From an uncultured Clostridia bacterium (GTDB lineage: Bacteria; Bacillota; Clostridia; TANB77; CAG-508), in NCBI GenBank assembly GCA_944392455.1, contig CALXWP010000004.1:18870-82869 (forward strand): a DNA stretch of 64,000 bases, in the 5' to 3' direction. A model generated the notes under the pieces. That model did not search any database, was not told the origin of the DNA, and saw only the letters and a list, made by a program, of their open reading frames with translations. The position numbers and the translations under genes were made by a program. Position 1 is the stretch's first letter; the number at the start of each line of letters is the position of its first letter. Positions 18,501 to 45,340 of the stretch are shown here, piece by piece.

Positions 18501-18524
18501 TCTACTTGAATATTATTTATTTTT

Positions 18525-18878
18525 AAAGTAAATCTATAAGCCGGGTTCTGTCTTAAATAGTCATCTATCTAGTACATATATTACTATATGCATCATGCCA
18601 CCAAATCAAGAAGACTGACGAGCAGCCATTAACCTTCTTTGCTCGGTGTTGCTCCTGATGGGGTTTACACTGACCCAGTATGTCACCATACCAGCGGTGA
18701 GCTCTTACCTCGCCTTTTCACCCTTACCTTAAAAATTAAGGTGGTTATTTTCTGTTGCACTTTCCTTAAGGTTTCCCTCACTGGACGTTATCCAGCATCA
18801 TTGCTCTATGGAGCCCGGACTTTCCTCGTACGCCGCCTTTCGACCTTGCTATACGCGACTATTCGGTTTACTCTTTAT
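18525..18878 (-). ncRNA. rnpB: RNase P RNA, bacterial type A
   Basis: The minus strand contains GAGGAAAGTCCGGGCTCCATAGAGCA, AGTGCAACAGAAA, GGTAAGGGTGAAAAGG, GGTAAGAGCTCACC, GTAAACCCCA and the 3' ACAGAACCCGGCTTA, matching the universally conserved RNase P core. The ends are approximate, inferred from P1 pairing. Confidence 0.93.
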
Positions 18879-36576: not shown

Positions 36577-37389
36577 TTATTCTTCCTTTTTTCTACCTAT
36601 GACAGCAAATCTACCATTCTCAGTATGGTATGAACATGTAGATAAAGTAATTAATTGATCTGGATATTCCACTTCAATTCCTGTTTCATAAATTGCACTT
36701 TTCTTTGCACTTTGAATAAATTCATTATATTCTTCTTCATTCTCTGTATCTATAAATTGATAATATCTAAAAACATTTTCTTCTGATTCATAATACACTC
36801 TTGATTTAAATACTGATAATATTTCATATTCTGAATCCTCTTCAGTAGTTGTATATCTAATAATTGGGTGTGTTTTATAAAACTCCTCGTCCGAATATTT
36901 TAATAAATCTTTAAACATCTCTCCTGTTATTAAATTATGACCATATATTAATAAATTATTACTAGGTTTGTCTAATTCATATCTATAATCTAAAAAAATT
37001 GATCCTTTTTCTGATTTTTCTTTTTTATAATTATGTGACATATAATAATCATTATCATCACCCTGTAAAACTGGATAATTTATTTTTGTACCTTCTATTT
37101 GGATCCAACCAACTATATCTTTATACTGCTTATTTAATTCTTTTACTTTTTCTATCCTTTCTTTTTTCTCATTATTTGCCTTTTCTTTTTCAGATATTTT
37201 ACTATTATTATAACTAATATTGTTTTCTAATATTATATCATTTAATAAACTACTTTCTTCTATAGCTTCTTTTTTTAATAATAAATACTTAAAAATATAG
37301 CATAATGATAAAATAATTATAAAAAGAAGAAAAATATAAACAATAGCTTTACATGAAATTCTACTACTTTCATTAATATTTTTATTCAT
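36577..37389 (-). CDS. class B-like sortase
   Basis: TM anchor, DIVGWIQIEGTKINYPVLQG, YGHN (His), TLSTCSY (Cys) and RFAVIGRK (Arg). Confidence 0.8.
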   Translation of the reverse strand: MNKNINESSRISCKAIVYIFLLFIIILSLCYIFKYLLLKKEAIEESSLLNDIILENNISYNNSKISEKEKANNEKKERIEKVKELNKQYKDIVGWIQIEGTKINYPVLQGDDNDYYMSHNYKKEKSEKGSIFLDYRYELDKPSNNLLIYGHNLITGEMFKDLLKYSDEEFYKTHPIIRYTTTEEDSEYEILSVFKSRVYYESEENVFRYYQFIDTENEEEYNEFIQSAKKSAIYETGIEVEYPDQLITLSTCSYHTENGRFAVIGRKKEE

Positions 37390-37434: not shown

Positions 37435-38571
37435 CTATCCTATTTTATCTCTTTTCCTCATAAATATTACAATTATTGCTGAAAATATTATAGCAAGTAA
37501 AGCTATTCCTAAATAACTCTTGGTTCCTGTCTTAGGTGTTTCATCACTTTCTCCTTTATTTTGTTCTGTATCTATTACAACATTTTCATTATCATTATCT
37601 TGAGTCTGTGTAATTTTAGCATATATAGTTGTATCAGAGCTTATATTAGTATTAAAATCAAATTCGTTTTTATATTCTTCATCTAAGAAAAATCCATCTA
37701 CTTTATATCCATCTTCTAATACTATGTGAGATTCTAATAATTCTTTTGTTATTTTCTCATCTTTATTTACAGTTATTCTCTTTGTTTCATCATTAACTAC
37801 TAATGAAATTATAACTTTTTCTTGATCAGAATTTGCAGTAACACTTCCAGGCACATCTGATTCTGCAATTACATTATTATTTTCATCTGTTAAAACGACT
37901 TTATCACCTGCAATAACAACTTTATTTGTCGTATTTTCAGTGTTAGTCACTGTAAATTCAGTCATATATCCATTATCAGCTGGTCTAACTACATTTTCTT
38001 TTGATTCAGATGTTAAAGTTCCGTTCATAGTTAATGTAGGATTATTAGTTGCAGATGCTCCTTTATCAATTTCTATACCATTATTTGCTCCTGTACCATT
38101 AAAACCCAAATGCAAGTCTCTTACTTCAACATTACCACCATTTACCAAAACTCCTCCATATCTAAAACCTGTTATTGATACATCTTCTAATATTACAGTT
38201 GCTCCATCATATGCTTGTACTCCATATTTAGGACCATTATTTAAATCTATATTTCTTAATGTTAATTTTCCTTCAGTAAACTGAGCTGTAAACATTGTTT
38301 GATTTCCTGATGTAGATGTCCAATCACTTGAACCTGATATTGTATATCCATTACCATCTATTATTAATTCTTTTTGAATTACTATAGGTTTATTTATTGT
38401 TATATTGTTTTCTATTTCGATAGTATCACCACTATTAGCACTTGAAATAACACTATTTAAAGATTCTTCATCATTTGCATTTAATGTTGCAGCATTACTT
38501 ATATTTGGTAATATAAATAAAATTGCAAAAAATAGAATAAATAGAATTGTTAGTTTTAATTTATTTTTCAT
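37435..38571 (-). CDS. cell-wall-anchored surface protein (beta-helix-like repeats) with a C-terminal sorting signal
   Basis: Signal peptide, then repeats of the GxxVxxxDVxI type. The C-terminal TPKTG motif is followed by a hydrophobic helix and an RKRDK tail. Confidence 0.7.
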   Translation of the reverse strand: MKNKLKLTILFILFFAILFILPNISNAATLNANDEESLNSVISSANSGDTIEIENNITINKPIVIQKELIIDGNGYTISGSSDWTSTSGNQTMFTAQFTEGKLTLRNIDLNNGPKYGVQAYDGATVILEDVSITGFRYGGVLVNGGNVEVRDLHLGFNGTGANNGIEIDKGASATNNPTLTMNGTLTSESKENVVRPADNGYMTEFTVTNTENTTNKVVIAGDKVVLTDENNNVIAESDVPGSVTANSDQEKVIISLVVNDETKRITVNKDEKITKELLESHIVLEDGYKVDGFFLDEEYKNEFDFNTNISSDTTIYAKITQTQDNDNENVVIDTEQNKGESDETPKTGTKSYLGIALLAIIFSAIIVIFMRKRDKIG

Positions 38572-38672
38572 TTTATACCTCCTTACTCAATTTTATTTTT
38601 TCCAATAAAAATTTTTTTATTTATATTTTTTTTTATTTTTAATAACAAAATTTTACAAATAAAAATATAAAA

Positions 38673-38790
38673 TAAAAAATATAAGAAAAGTGGCTTTGCC
38701 ACATGTGCGTTTTGCTTCGCAAATACGCACAACCAAGGTAACTTAACCTTGTTGCTCCGGAAATTTCTTGCGAAATTTCCTATGCAATAA
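38673..38790 (-). ncRNA. structured element copy A: four consecutive hairpins ending in a hairpin plus U-run (candidate sRNA, leader or REP-like repeat)
   Basis: Minus strand, in order:
- UUAUUGCAUA.
- H1: GGAAAUUUC-GCAA-GAAAUUUCC (38759-38780).
- H2: CAACAAGGU...ACCUUGGUUG (38730-38754).
- H3: GUGCGUAUUUGC-GAA-GCAAAACGCAC (38705-38730).
- H4: GUGGC-AAA-GCCAC (38690-38702), then UUUUCUUAU.
A homologous copy lies at 45171-45340. Confidence 0.5.
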
Positions 38791-38818
38791 AAAATAGAGG
38801 CGCTAAATAAAGCGCCCT
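38787..38818 (-). terminator. rho-independent terminator of the 106-aa island gene
   Basis: Minus strand: GGGCGCT-ttattt-AGCGCC(TC) followed by TATTTTTTATT. Confidence 0.7.
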
Positions 38819-38838
38819 GATAATCAAAAAAGGTATAT

Positions 38839-39159
38839 TTAATCTGTAAATTCATGTGGATTAGAAGAAAGTTCAACTTTCCATATTTCACCCATTTTTC
38901 CACCATCAACTCTAGCGGCACACAGGTCTGGATATAGTTCAGCCTCAACCAGTCTTCGTGCAATGCGATAGCCACAATCATCGCCGCCTTCTTGTTTGCA
39001 GTCAACTATTATGTCTACTATTTGCTGCTTGTCTGGTATTAAAGCATCTGATATTACCGAGATATATAAATCTTTACTTACAGCTAATACATCTCGGTAT
39101 TTCTCCCGTTCCACCTTTTCTTTTCCTTTTGGAAAGCATCCAAAAAATTTTTTAATCAT
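38839..39159 (-). CDS. 106-aa hypothetical protein (partner of the radical SAM gene; GC-rich island)
   Basis: Start chosen at the ATG 39157-39159 (MIKKFFGCFPKG), with a GGAGGT RBS at 39169-39174. It has four Cys, uses an in-frame CGG codon, and has its own promoter-like motif and terminator. Confidence 0.6.
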   Translation of the reverse strand: MIKKFFGCFPKGKEKVEREKYRDVLAVSKDLYISVISDALIPDKQQIVDIIVDCKQEGGDDCGYRIARRLVEAELYPDLCAARVDGGKMGEIWKVELSSNPHEFTD

Positions 39160-39200
39160 AAAGTCTATACCTCCTTGTATTTGATATATATATTTTATCA

Positions 39201-39217
39201 TTTATGTAAATTTAAGT
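39201..39217 (-). promoter_or_regulatory. 17-mer ACTTAAATTTACATAAA (contains a -35-like TTTACA) upstream of the 106-aa gene
   Basis: Identical to the 17-mer at 40436-40452 upstream of the radical SAM gene. The -10 here is poor. Confidence 0.45.
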
Positions 39218-39241
39218 CAATTTTATATGGTTTCAGATAGT

Positions 39242-39285
39242 AAATAAAAATACCCCTTCAGGACCATTTGACCGGTCCCAAAGAG
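39242..39285 (-). terminator. rho-independent terminator of the radical SAM gene
   Basis: Minus strand: CUCUUUGGGACC-loop-GGUCCUGAAGGGG (with G-U pairs) followed by UAUUUUUAUUU. Confidence 0.6.
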
Positions 39286-39312
39286 ATTTTAACAGTACAC
39301 TGCATGGATTTC

Positions 39313-40377
39313 TTACAACTTCTTACCGCAAGACCAATCAGAGAACAAATCTCCATTTGGCATAGCAGAATAATTGTAAGTGCGCCTTTTGGCACTCTTC
39401 CAATATGCGCGGAGCAGATCTTCAGGAATATACTCCTTAAAAGATACAGTCATCTTTCTTCCTACAACTGCCTCTGCTTTCACGGATGGAATCATATCTT
39501 CCATTCCCATAAGGCTCATTACGAGCTGAAGTTCTGGAGGAAGAAATGTTCCTTCCACTTCTTTTTTGGTTTCAATGATTCCATCAAAGGTTGTGAGCTT
39601 AAAACCCGCACTAAAAGCAATCGGTTTATCTGACTCAAAACCTCTTTCGCTAAGTTCCTTCATAGCCTTCTGAAAGATCTTCGGATCACAGCTTAAGTTT
39701 TCTTTTGCCAAATCCGGTGTTACATCATCCTGGAAGTTACTGAACATTACATTAGTAATTCCAAGTTTTGCAGCCCACTGAATGTATTCAATCACGTCTT
39801 CAAGGGTATTTATACCACCTTTCTGGCACAGACAAGAAAGCTGAATTTTTTTCTTCATAGAATGGCATATTTCTTCCAAATCTTCTGAAGAAAGAAGCTC
39901 CTCATTGCTCCTTGGCCGGAAGATACTTTTGTTAATCTCATCATCATAGTGATAACGTGAAAAGATTATTGTCTGGAATCTTCTGCAAGTCGCACAATTG
40001 TGATCCAGTTCCTCTAAAAAGAGCTCTCTTGCTCCATTTGTTACAATAGAATAGTAAGTTACCTTCTCGTCGTCATCTTCCTCGTCGAAATTAGCTTCCA
40101 TTTCATTTCTCATATCTAGTTCGGTAATGAGTCTCCAGATCTTATCGATCTTATATAACGGCTCGCCACCTCCAAATACGATATGACGGAACTGTTTGTA
40201 GTTCTTTTTCAGAACTTCATCCAGTATGTACCTCTTGCTCTGCATTTCGTCATCACTGAAAACCTTATTCCGACAGCACTGGCAATTGCATTGACAATAT
40301 CCATCATAAGTCACATAGAGCTGTTTTTGTTCTGTACGTCCTAACCGTCTATGTATCCTCTGAAAATCTTTTGACAT
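39313..40377 (-). CDS. radical SAM enzyme of unassigned subfamily
   Basis: Has the CX3CX2C cluster embedded in CQCNCQCC (YVTYDGYCQCNCQCCRN) and the GGGEPL SAM-binding motif. No SPASM-type C-terminal Cys cluster is obvious. GC-rich, with at least three in-frame CGG codons. Confidence 0.7.
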   Translation of the reverse strand: MSKDFQRIHRRLGRTEQKQLYVTYDGYCQCNCQCCRNKVFSDDEMQSKRYILDEVLKKNYKQFRHIVFGGGEPLYKIDKIWRLITELDMRNEMEANFDEEDDDEKVTYYSIVTNGARELFLEELDHNCATCRRFQTIIFSRYHYDDEINKSIFRPRSNEELLSSEDLEEICHSMKKKIQLSCLCQKGGINTLEDVIEYIQWAAKLGITNVMFSNFQDDVTPDLAKENLSCDPKIFQKAMKELSERGFESDKPIAFSAGFKLTTFDGIIETKKEVEGTFLPPELQLVMSLMGMEDMIPSVKAEAVVGRKMTVSFKEYIPEDLLRAYWKSAKRRTYNYSAMPNGDLFSDWSCGKKL

Positions 40378-40416
40378 AATTTAATGTCCTCCTTTTTATT
40401 TTATTGTACAACTTAT

Positions 40417-45133: not shown

Positions 45134-45169
45134 AAGTAAACAAATTTCTTTAATAATTTGTTTACTTTT
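45134..45169 (-). terminator. 13-bp perfect inverted repeat; on the minus strand it is followed by a T-run
   Basis: AAAGTAAACAAAT...ATTTGTTTACTTT. It probably terminates transcription coming from the DUF1294 gene before the ppdK promoter. Confidence 0.55.
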
Positions 45170-45170
45170 A

Positions 45171-45340
45171 TTATTGTATAGGAAAAATCGACTTTTTCTC
45201 TGAAATTTCAGTATTTTTAATGATTTTTCCCTATACAACAATGTTAATTTTCCTTGGGCTGTGCATATTTGCGAAGCAAAATGCACATGTGGACGTCGAA
45301 ATCTTGGATTTCATTAACGTCCAATTTTCTTATTTATTTT
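45171..45340 (+). ncRNA. structured element copy B (inverted relative to copy A)
   Basis: Plus strand, in order:
- UUAUUGUAUA.
- GGAAAAAUC...GAUUUUUCC.
- CAACAAUGUUAAUUUUCCUUGGGCU.
- GUGCAUAUUUGC-GAA-GCAAAAUGCAC (45261-45286).
- UGGACGU...ACGUCCA (45290-45323), then AUUUUCUUAUUUAUUUU.
The core is about 85% identical to copy A, with compensatory changes in two stems. Confidence 0.5.

What the first reader, a model, noticed from the sequence alone, without database searches (positions are those of the whole stretch)
45171..45340. Second, inverted copy of the element shows three compensatory base-pair changes; the two copies bracket 6.4 kb head-to-head
Copy B (plus strand) aligns with copy A (minus strand) through these segments:
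- TTATTGYATAGGAAA.
- CAACAAKGTTAA..CCTTGG.
- TGTGCRTATTTGCGAAGCAAAAYGCACATGTGG.
- The tail TTTTCTTAT.

Stem 1 is GGAAAUUUC/GAAAUUUCC in A and GGAAAAAUC/GAUUUUUCC in B, which is two U-A to A-U flips. Stem 3 is GUGCGU/ACGCAC in A and GUGCAU/AUGCAC in B, which is G-C to A-U.

Pairing is therefore conserved while the sequence changes. That is the classical signature of selection on structure, whether RNA or single-stranded or cruciform DNA.

B carries a 32-nt insertion in the stem 1 loop and a longer terminal hairpin. Stem 2 is degraded in B.

The heads of A and B face each other across the rSAM island, a secreted protein gene, rdgB and ppdK.
Basis: seen in the sequence. Interest (0 to 1): 0.65.

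Follow-up and report, generated by a model that had tools for sequence, protein, structure and literature searches.

The report
Small mobile hairpin repeat of gut Clostridia
The two inverted "structured elements" are copies of a short, gene-less mobile DNA repeat that is scattered through many uncultured gut Clostridia and lands just after transcription terminators; it is a new family of a known kind of selfish repeat, not a dedicated regulatory RNA pair.

Summary
Copy A (38681-38786, minus) and copy B (45175-45333, plus) are homologous and fold into four hairpins.

They are not a locus-specific pair.
- B is an insertion polymorphism. Of ten near-identical metagenome contigs, three carry it (as does the window) and seven lack exactly these 159 nt.
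- A core-pattern scan found more than 116 loci in about 46 MAGs of low-GC uncultured Clostridia. Copies within one MAG are about 98% identical.
- Twelve exact head-to-tail dimers occur, and assemblies break at the element.

The "conserved head TTATTG and tail TTTTCTTAT" are the insertion junctions. The left flank is always T-rich (TTTTTTAT|), usually right after a terminator-like hairpin. The element ends in hairpin+TTTTCTTAT|, and the right flank is random.

Covariation is strong family-wide: 33 of 37 pairs show double changes. G·T and A·C mismatches are equally common. No promoter, Rfam family, linked transposase or proper terminal inverted repeat was found.

Best reading: a non-autonomous, trans-mobilised, hairpin-dependent element, analogous to bcr1 of Bacillus cereus and SPRITE of pneumococcus. 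The mobilising enzyme is unknown. The 6.4-kb "bracketing" is coincidental.

The parts
38681..38786 (-). Copy A: 106-nt short-type element, TGCATAGG...CTTTTCTTAT.
   Evidence: The covariance model scores it at 112 bits over model positions 1-106. It is present in all related contigs that span the site.
38753..38786 (-). A, stem 1. The left-end hairpin has an outer stem TGC/GCA and an inner stem GGAAATTTC/GAAATTTCC.
   Evidence: MFE fold. Family covariation in helices 1-2.
38734..38751 (-). A, stem 2: CAAGG-UUAAGUUA-CCUUG.
38704..38731 (-). A, stem 3: a 12-bp hairpin with one bulged A and a GCGAAGC apex.
   Evidence: helix 4, 97.9% paired
38681..38702 (-). A, right end: the 3' hairpin GTGGCAAAGCCAC followed by TTTTCTTAT.
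   Evidence: Scored terminator-like at 38702-38690. The right end is conserved in 77 of 85 copies.
38787..38817 (-). Target of A: the native terminator hairpin of the 106-aa gene (38798-38817), followed by CTATTTTTTAT up to the insertion point.
   Evidence: Terminator-like call. Left-flank consensus TTTTTTAT.
45175..45333 (+). Copy B: 159-nt long-type element. It is exactly the segment missing in the empty alleles.
   Evidence: The covariance model scores it at 83 bits.
45175..45237 (+). B, stem 1 with a 31-nt loop insert.
45239..45256 (+). B, stem 2 (CAATG/CCTTG, one mismatch).
45260..45287 (+). B, stem 3.
45290..45333 (+). B, right end: the long 3' hairpin (TGGACGT...ACGTCCA) followed by ATTTTCTTAT. 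It abuts the DUF1294 stop codon at 45334-45336.
45136..45174 (+). Target of B: the AT-rich hairpin GTAAACAAATT...AATTTGTTTAC has an A-run on one side and a T-run on the other. It probably serves as the terminator of DUF1294 on the minus strand. TTTTATTAT follows, up to the insertion point.
   Evidence: Sequence. The stretch is present unchanged in the empty alleles.

Best explanation
A and B are two independent insertions of a small (about 106-159 nt), non-coding, non-autonomous mobile element. The family populates the intergenic regions of a clade of low-GC uncultured gut Clostridia.

**Shown**
- The element is present or absent at an otherwise identical site.
- It is multi-copy and nearly identical within genomes.
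- It always has the same ends, TG(Y)ATAGG...hairpin-TTTTCTTAT.
- It sits in one orientation directly 3' of a T-rich TTTTTTAT motif that usually follows a terminator-like hairpin.
- It forms exact head-to-tail dimers, because its own right end (hairpin+TTTTCTTAT) mimics the target.
- Its four hairpins are maintained by compensatory changes across subfamilies. Loop inserts give four modular size classes.

**Inferred**
- It is moved in trans by an enzyme encoded elsewhere.
- That enzyme recognises a folded hairpin followed by TTTTYTTAT and cuts or joins after TTAT. The most likely candidates are a single-strand-DNA HUH-type transposase or a site-specific recombinase, rather than a DDE transposase.
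- The hairpins are conserved because only copies that fold can be mobilised. That is selection on the element's propagation, not on a host function at each locus.
- Once inserted, copies decay neutrally.

**Local effects in the window**
- These are probably limited to adding hairpins.
- For A, the added terminator-like 3' hairpin lies between the 106-aa gene and the secreted-protein gene.
- For B, the reverse complement is added to the DUF1294 3' UTR.
For: **Mobility**
- Ten contigs encode the identical DUF1294 protein. Three are filled (L002, L003, L006), like the window, and seven are empty (L001, L004, L005, L007-L010).
- The empty ones lack exactly 159 nt. The empty site reads ...ACTTTTATTAT|TTATTTT.

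**Copy number and spread**
- 16 loci come from one MAG (E08__bin232) and 10 from another.
- Median pairwise identity is 97.7-98.5% at unrelated flanks.
- Contigs end inside the element.

**Ends and target**
- The left flank is TTTTTTAT, with 59-84 of 85 T or A as expected at each of the 8 positions.
- The right end is TTAT in 77 of 85 copies, followed by unbiased sequence.
- The 10 apparent exceptions on the left were mis-set heads.

**Terminator adjacency**
- The upstream 45 nt fold at a median of -9.2 kcal/mol, against -2.3 downstream (Wilcoxon p = 2e-12).
- 61 of 93 non-tandem copies have a hairpin next to the site. Only 83 of 321 unoccupied intergenic TTTYTTAT sites do (odds ratio 5.5, p = 5e-12).

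**Tandem dimers.** Twelve exactly abutting pairs were found.

**Structure**
- 92% of cells are paired, against 30-61% when partners are slid.
- 33 of 37 pairs show changes on both sides.
- On a structure-blind MAFFT alignment, 90.6% are paired against 32-52% slid.

**Against an RNA gene**
- No Rfam hit, even at E <= 10.
- No promoter-like site upstream on the element's strand.
- G·T 86 against A·C 95.

**Analogy.** bcr1 of B. cereus is about 155 bp, has TTTAT flanking repeats and keeps a cruciform-like fold by compensatory changes. Its mechanism is unknown (PMC3184786, PMC6199540, PMC6542083).
Against: - No mobilising enzyme was identified. No transposase-like gene recurs next to the copies in about 0.8 Mb of flanks.
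- No ORF-bearing version with the same ends was seen among more than 116 loci.
- Sequence alone cannot tell whether TTAT is a 4-bp target duplication or part of the element.
- The single-strand/HUH idea lacks its usual signatures. Only 62% of copies have their top strand on the G-rich (leading) strand, which is no more than the coding bias.
- The left-end and right-end hairpins are unlike each other.
- No wobble asymmetry marks one strand.
- Transcription was not resolved. The only 'RNA-Seq' run is held as unstranded contigs.
- Copy A was filled in every contig that spans it, so its mobility is inferred from family membership only.
Confidence: 0.85

Rival explanations
1. This is a family of small RNAs or cis-acting RNA elements under host selection. 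Each copy would be transcribed and would act as a structured RNA, for example a portable terminator, insulator or mRNA stabiliser. Mobility would be only the way the family spread.
For: - Four hairpins with strong covariation.
- The 3' hairpin plus U-tract scores as an intrinsic terminator.
- Copies lie co-oriented behind an upstream gene about twice as often as not (63 against 29), so many would be co-transcribed by read-through.
- bcr and pneumococcal repeats are known to be transcribed as parts of UTRs (PMC3446304, PMC3049150).
- Contigs of a chicken-gut run labelled RNA-Seq cover the element core.
Against: - No promoter-like site on the element strand.
- No conserved neighbouring gene.
- B lies antisense to its neighbours.
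- G·T and A·C mismatches are equally common, unlike RNAs selected on one strand.
- The reverse complement folds equally well.
- The presence/absence polymorphism between near-identical strains shows the copy is dispensable.
- No Rfam match.
Confidence: 0.1
2. This is a classical MITE. It would be an internally deleted insertion sequence moved by a DDE transposase that binds terminal inverted repeats and duplicates a 4-bp TTAT target.
For: - TTAT is present on both sides in 60 of 85 scored copies, and more after correcting the mis-set heads.
- The size, AT-richness and copy number are typical of MITEs.
- An imperfect inverted match exists between ATAGGAAAAATCG near the left end and CCACTTTTCTTAT at the right end. 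It is 10 of 13 in the short type and 12 of 15 in B, read from the sequences.
Against: - The inverted match is offset. It starts 3 nt inside the left end but includes the TTAT at the right end, so it is not a pair of true termini.
- Target preference is strongly one-sided. Eight conserved T-rich positions lie on the left and none on the right. The element has one fixed orientation relative to the target, which is not expected for a symmetric DDE synaptic complex.
- Variant tetranucleotides never match between the two sides. Examples are TCAT, TAAT and CTAT on the left with TTAT on the right, and TTAC or TTAA on the right with TTAT on the left.
- No parent IS was found.
Confidence: 0.2
3. This is a derivative of an IS200/IS605-type element (a 'PATE'). 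A Y1 HUH transposase would move it as single-stranded DNA and insert it 3' of a TTAT/TTTAT tetra- or pentanucleotide without duplication.
For: - One-sided conserved target immediately 5' of the left end.
- No true terminal inverted repeats.
- Subterminal hairpins; the right-end hairpin foot lies 9 nt from the end.
- d(GCGAAGC), known from my own knowledge as an exceptionally stable DNA mini-hairpin, lies at two apices.
- The left and right tetranucleotide variants are uncorrelated.
Against: - The left- and right-end hairpins are dissimilar, whereas one TnpA dimer normally binds near-identical hairpins.
- Only 62% of copies are oriented with the G-rich strand.
- No tnpA- or tnpB-bearing relative appeared among more than 116 loci.
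- No match to the IS605-related RNA motifs in Rfam.
Confidence: 0.2
4. The two inverted copies make the 6.4-kb rSAM-rdgB-ppdK block a composite transposon or an invertible segment.
For: Only the geometry supports this. The copies are inverted and 6,388 bp apart.
Against: - B is missing in 7 of 10 related contigs, while ppdK stays next to the DUF1294 gene.
- The same gene order is found in all contigs spanning the block.
- Shared identity is only about 43 nt at 86%.
- ppdK and rdgB are housekeeping genes.
Confidence: 0.02
5. This is a retro-mobile, SINE-like element. Its borders would be RNA ends, with the right end being the terminator release site. It would be copied back into DNA behind other terminators, as group IIC introns target terminator stem-loops.
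For: - The right border lies 9 nt after a terminator-like hairpin, and the target lies at the same distance after native terminators.
- Several 5'-shortened copies start at CTATAC behind a native terminator (L034, L051, L085, L112, L119).
Against: - The shortened copies all break in T-runs, so they are explained by slippage deletion.
- There is no internal promoter.
- No reverse transcriptase is linked.
- No group II domains are present, and Rfam gives no hit.
Confidence: 0.04

Closest known systems
bcr1 (bcr group A repeats) of the Bacillus cereus group
   Same: - A Bacillota chromosomal repeat of about 155 bp.
- Variable location between close strains.
- Flanked by a T-rich TTTAT motif.
- Independent stem-loops kept by compensatory base changes.
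[quoted passage not shown]

Here the left flank ends in TTTAT in most copies.
   Different: - bcr1 is confined to the B. cereus group; this family is in uncultured low-GC Clostridia.
- No sequence similarity was detectable. blastn of B against 72,556 plasmids found nothing. B. cereus group plasmids are reported to carry bcr1 (PMC6542083).
- The right-hand repeat here is CTTAT/TTAT, so at most 4 bp are shared.
- Terminator adjacency and tandem dimers have not, to my knowledge, been described for bcr1.
SPRITE, RUP and BOX repeats of Streptococcus pneumoniae
   Same: - Small AT-rich interspersed repeats with extensive predicted hairpins.
- SPRITE looks like a Rho-independent terminator and is enriched close to the 3' ends of genes.
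- About 60% of copies follow the coding-strand bias.
- No matching IS is known for SPRITE (PMC3049150).

Here 62% of copies follow the GC-skew strand, and 66% sit beside a hairpin.
   Different: - SPRITE is a single 18-bp duplex plus a U-rich tract with AAAA/TTTT ends, and no empty site was available for it.
- This element has four hairpins, a defined TTTTTTAT| junction, a documented empty site and modular length classes.
IS200/IS605-derived miniature elements (PATEs) and REP/RAYT systems
   Same: - Hairpin-rich.
- No true inverted terminal repeats.
- Oriented insertion next to a short conserved motif.
   Different: - No related tnpA, tnpB or RAYT gene was found.
- The end hairpins are dissimilar.
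- There is only a weak replication-strand bias.
Group IIC introns (target choice only)
   Same: They insert just downstream of intrinsic-terminator stem-loops, in one orientation (from my own knowledge).
   Different: - This element is 106-159 nt.
- It has no intron domains.
- It has no reverse transcriptase.
- It gives no Rfam intron hit.

Membership tests
Classical MITE | Short, non-coding, multi-copy and interspersed, with insertion polymorphism. | tested here: met
   The element is 106-159 nt. More than 116 loci were found in about 46 assemblies. Filled and empty alleles exist.
Classical MITE | Terminal inverted repeats at the very ends. | tested here: not met
   Only an offset, imperfect match was found: ATAGGAAAAATCG, starting 3 nt inside the left end, against the right end CCACTTTTCTTAT (10 of 13). 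This was read from the sequences.
Classical MITE | Target-site duplication. | tested here: inconclusive
   TTAT lies on both sides. The empty site is equally compatible with a 4-bp duplication or with an element-borne TTAT. Variant tetranucleotides never match between the sides.
Classical MITE | A parent IS that shares the ends. | tested here: not met
   None was found in about 0.8 Mb around more than 116 copies. Whole genomes could not be read.
bcr1 / bcr group A | Flanking TTTAT-type direct repeat. | tested here: met
   The left flank is ...TTTTTTAT and the right end is ...CTTAT. Only TTAT is common to both sides.
bcr1 / bcr group A | Stem-loops maintained by compensatory changes. | tested here: met
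   33 of 37 pairs show double changes, and 92% of cells are paired.
bcr1 / bcr group A | Sequence homology to the bcr1 consensus and restriction to the B. cereus group. | tested here: not met
   The host is Clostridia. There was no blastn match in plasmids. The bcr1 consensus itself was not at hand.
IS200/IS605-derived element (PATE) | Oriented insertion 3' of a fixed tetra- or pentanucleotide, with no inverted terminal repeats. | tested here: met
   TTAT lies 5' of the left end in at least 67 of 85 copies. The rest were mostly mis-set heads.
IS200/IS605-derived element (PATE) | Similar subterminal hairpins at the left and right ends. | tested here: not met
   The left hairpin is GGAAAAATCG..CGATTTTTCC. 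The right hairpin is GTGGCGAAGCCAC or GGACGTCG...CGTCC.
IS200/IS605-derived element (PATE) | A related tnpA- or tnpB-bearing element, and a strong lagging-template strand bias. | tested here: not met
   No such gene recurs. The strand split is 54 against 33 (62%).
Bacterial sRNA gene or described RNA family | A match to a curated RNA family. | tested here: not met
   Rfam 15 gave no hit at gathering threshold or at E <= 10.
Bacterial sRNA gene or described RNA family | Own promoter and a discrete transcript. | tested here: inconclusive
   No promoter-like site lies on the element strand. The only RNA-labelled run is held as unstranded contigs.
Group IIC intron | Ribozyme domains (D5/D6) and intron boundaries. 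| tested here: not met
   There was no Rfam intron hit, and the element is only 106-159 nt.

The most novel reading that the evidence does not exclude
The family may represent a distinct way of moving DNA. It would be a gene-less element recognised as a folded hairpin plus a T-rich tail, homing to the T-tract behind intrinsic terminators. The enzyme would not be linked to it and would not belong to the usual IS partners. Candidates are an unrecognised HUH nuclease or a Xer-like host recombinase. If so, it would share the still unsolved mechanism of bcr1, and a cryptic terminator-targeting transposition system would be widespread in Bacillota.
Probability: 0.25. Interest if true: 0.7.

Novelty: new member of a known kind. 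Interest (0 to 1): 0.4.

Why it matters
- **For annotation.** These copies should be masked as interspersed repeats. They should not be called as sRNA genes or riboswitch-like leaders in gut Clostridia MAGs. They also explain recurrent contig breaks in those assemblies.
- **For biology.** The family offers a clean, data-rich case: a documented empty site, recent bursts, tandem dimers, and subfamilies with flipped stems. It shows a hairpin-dependent mobile repeat that targets the T-tract behind terminators and has no visible transposase.
- **For an open question.** The same puzzle has stood for bcr1 for two decades. Finding the enzyme would be of interest for transposition mechanisms.
- **For the window itself.** The finding is ordinary. 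There are two selfish insertions, one of them polymorphic in the population.

Tried and rejected
- **Rfam** at gathering threshold and at E <= 10 on both loci gave only chance-level hits.
- **blastn** of B against the plasmid and phage collections gave nothing.
- **IMG/VR scan** with the core gave 4 chance hits, none recognised by the model.
- **Search for an autonomous parent.**
  - Orphan left and right ends in the loci were mostly palindrome artefacts, deletion derivatives or solo stem-1 remnants.
  - All-against-all clustering of 638 flanking ORFs showed no recurrent transposase.
- **Xer-type recombinase genes** lie near elements in three loci. They look like housekeeping xerC and xerD in three different arrangements, so I treat this as chance.
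- **Strand assignment by wobble pairs** showed no asymmetry.
- **Replication-strand bias** was weak.
- **RNA evidence.**
  - The second showed only unstranded contigs from many loci.
- **Empty allele of copy A.**
  - The exact-protein look-ups gave only filled or broken contigs.
  - A metagenome scan for the predicted empty junction found nothing.
- **RNAalifold** on the raw MAFFT alignment mis-paired stem 1. I therefore imposed a hand-drawn structure and checked it with slid controls.
- **Singleton versus recurrent substitutions** were compared to separate decay from selection. The result was not clear-cut.

Full report
**1. The observation**

- A 33-nt core, TGTGCRTATTTGCGAAGCAAAAYGCACATGTGG, occurs exactly twice in the window, once on each strand. 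It never occurs in shuffled sequence.
- A covariance model built later from other genomes' copies delimits copy A at 38681-38786 (minus) and copy B at 45175-45333 (plus). It finds nothing else in the 64 kb.
- Each copy folds into four hairpins, far more stably than shuffles. Their reverse complements do too.
- The compensatory differences are as stated. Two flipped pairs lie in stem 1, and a G-C to A-U change lies in stem 3.
- B has a 31-nt loop insert in stem 1, a long 3' hairpin, and one mismatch in stem 2.

**2. What it is: B is an insertion**

A look-up of the DUF1294 protein next to B returned ten near-identical metagenome contigs.
- L002, L003 and L006 carry B like the window.
- Seven (L001, L004, L005, L007-L010) lack exactly 159 nt and are otherwise almost identical.
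- The empty site reads ...GTTTACTTTTATTAT|TTATTTTATAA.
- The filled site reads ...TTTTATTAT|TGTATAGG...CCAATTTTCTTAT|TTATTTT.
- ppdK stays next to the DUF1294 gene in the empty alleles, and gene order across the 6.4-kb block is the same wherever it is assembled. The "bracketing" therefore has no functional meaning.
- Copy A was filled in all contigs spanning it. Two short contigs break inside it.

**3. A large family**

- All but one chance hit lie in about 46 MAG assemblies labelled uncultured Clostridium, Clostridia or Eubacteriales. One is Candidatus Merdicola faecigallinarum (Clostridia incertae sedis).
- The MAGs come from chicken, rabbit and human gut.
- One MAG supplies 16 loci and another 10. 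Within each, copies at unrelated flanks are 97.7-98.5% identical in the median, which indicates recent amplification.
- Many copies sit at contig ends.
- Eighty distinct full-length sequences fall into four modular length classes: about 106, 130, 136 and 159 nt. These combine a short or long stem-1 loop with a short or long 3' hairpin.
- Rarer variants carry a 50-nt insert in the stem-2 loop.
- A belongs to a short subfamily (GGAAATTTC stem, G-C in stem 3) and B to the long/long one. Both subfamilies have members in other MAGs, so the A/B differences predate the insertions.

**4. Ends, target and arrangement**
- The element starts TG(Y)ATAGG and ends hairpin-TTTTCTTAT.
- The eight bases left of it are TTTTTTAT in nearly all copies. 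The bases to its right are unbiased. The ten apparent exceptions were mis-set heads.
- The upstream 45 nt fold much more strongly than the downstream 45 nt (median -9.2 against -2.3 kcal/mol, p = 2e-12).
- 66% of non-tandem copies sit beside a hairpin. Only 26% of unoccupied intergenic TTTYTTAT sites do (odds ratio 5.5, p = 5e-12).
- In the window, A follows the terminator of the 106-aa gene.
- B follows an AT-rich hairpin with A- and T-runs on either side. This explains how B came to lie antisense to its neighbours, with its 3' end abutting the DUF1294 stop codon.
- The element's own right end resembles the target. Twelve loci contain exactly abutting head-to-tail dimers.
- Deletion derivatives exist with breakpoints in T-runs, as do solo stem-1 remnants.

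**5. Structure**
- On 117 distinct copies aligned to the model, 92% of cells pair, against 30-61% when partners are slid. 33 of 37 pairs show changes on both sides.
- On a structure-blind MAFFT alignment of 34 short copies, 90.6% pair against 32-52% slid. Nine pairs show double changes.
- One subfamily even has the outer part of stem 3 swapped (GCAC...GTGC instead of GTGC...GCAC) while keeping the GCGAAGC apex.
- Selection for pairing is therefore real.
- G·T (86) and A·C (95) mismatches are equally frequent, so no strand is marked as the folding one.
- I read this as selection acting on propagation, followed by neutral decay: only copies that fold are mobilised.

**6. What it is not**
- No Rfam family matches, even permissively.
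- No promoter-like site precedes either copy on its strand.
- Neighbours are not conserved.
- Nothing similar exists in the plasmid, phage or IMG/VR collections.
- No transposase-like gene recurs beside the copies.
- Xer-type recombinase genes near three copies look like housekeeping xerC and xerD in different arrangements.
- True terminal inverted repeats are absent. There is only an offset, imperfect match that makes the right-end/left-end junction a palindrome, TTTTCTTAT-TGT-ATAGGAAAA.
- Orientation follows the G-rich strand in only 62% of cases. Upstream genes are co-oriented 63 against 29. That is the ordinary coding bias, not the strong bias of IS200/IS605 elements.

**7. Mechanism**

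*Shown.* The element is a mobile, non-autonomous, oriented insertion at TTTTTTAT| behind hairpins. Its right end mimics the target.

*Inferred.*
- It is mobilised in trans by an enzyme that recognises hairpin+TTTTYTTAT and acts after TTAT.
- I favour a single-strand (HUH-type) or site-specific recombination route over a DDE transposase. The reasons are the one-sided target, the fixed orientation, the lack of true inverted termini, and the uncorrelated variants of the left and right tetranucleotides.
- The evidence is indirect, and several expected HUH signatures are missing.
- Sequence alone cannot separate a 4-bp duplication from an element-borne TTAT.

**8. Comparison with known elements**
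- The closest described analogue is bcr1 of the B. cereus group. It is about 155 bp, has TTTAT flanks, keeps its stem-loops by compensatory changes, and has an unknown enzyme (PMC3184786, PMC6199540, PMC6542083).
- The terminator-like SPRITE repeat of pneumococci is also close (PMC3049150).
- The present family shares their logic but not their sequence or host. It adds a clear terminator-adjacent target and tandem dimers.
- It is not a member of either family, nor of classical MITEs or IS200/IS605 derivatives, by the features tested.

**9. Verdict**

This is a new family of a known kind, of moderate interest, mainly for the unsolved mobilisation mechanism and for MAG annotation.

Noticed in passing
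window 18521-18874 (-) and 63562-63634 (-): A bacterial class A RNase P RNA (292 bits) and a tRNA gene are present. Class A RNase P fits Clostridia rather than Bacilli.
   Followed up: no
window 38000-40400: A patch of higher G+C (33% against about 25%) holds a 106-aa ORF (38839-39159, -) and a 354-aa protein with a faint radical-SAM hit (39313-40377, -). Copy A sits at its edge. The patch may be acquired DNA or a small peptide-modification cluster.
   Followed up: no
L056 4215-5183, L060 467-1444, L114 1014-1904: Xer-type tyrosine recombinase genes lie 80-450 nt from element copies in three MAGs. Two are XerC-like and score below the NCBIfam cut-off. One is XerD and scores above it. The arrangements differ, so this is probably chance, but a host recombinase is one candidate mobiliser.
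   Followed up: partly
L068 287-466 and L121 4876-5030: The same roughly 50-nt extra hairpin (AGTTAGCCGTTCGAGCAAAGCGAGTTACGG...) is inserted in the stem-2 loop. L027 has a roughly 60-nt insert in the stem-1 loop. Loops therefore accept modules.
   Followed up: no
L016 7662-7784 and L092 1533-1663: Two species carry a similarly diverged copy upstream of an ABC ATPase gene. This looks like one orthologous, vertically inherited insertion. It would be useful for testing selection after insertion.
   Followed up: no
L024, L028, L119 (upstream partners of tandem dimers): One subfamily has stem 3 written GCACAATAATTGCGAAGCAATTTTGTGC. The outer stem is swapped relative to the main type, and the GCGAAGC apex is kept.
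   Followed up: partly
L037 38-75 and L102 (minus strand, about 2222 from the reversed start): Solo stem-1 hairpins with the normal TTAT|TGTATAG left junction are followed by unrelated sequence. They are either remnants or a separately mobile sub-module.
   Followed up: no
window 45135-45340 laid with runs X1-X3: In a chicken-gut run labelled RNA-Seq, contigs cover the element core at word depth 59-115, while the adjacent DUF1294 gene has depth 0. Loose ends lead into many different flanks. This fits many copies in the community. It does not resolve strand or transcription.
   Followed up: partly
L006, L012, L013 (contig ends): Short-read assemblies end inside the element, at hairpin apices. 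The repeat fragments MAG assemblies of this clade.
   Followed up: no
window 36577-37389 (-) and 37435-38571 (-): A sortase-family gene follows a 378-aa secreted protein that has a C-terminal hydrophobic anchor-like tail. This is probably a sortase-substrate pair lying just downstream of copy A.
   Followed up: no
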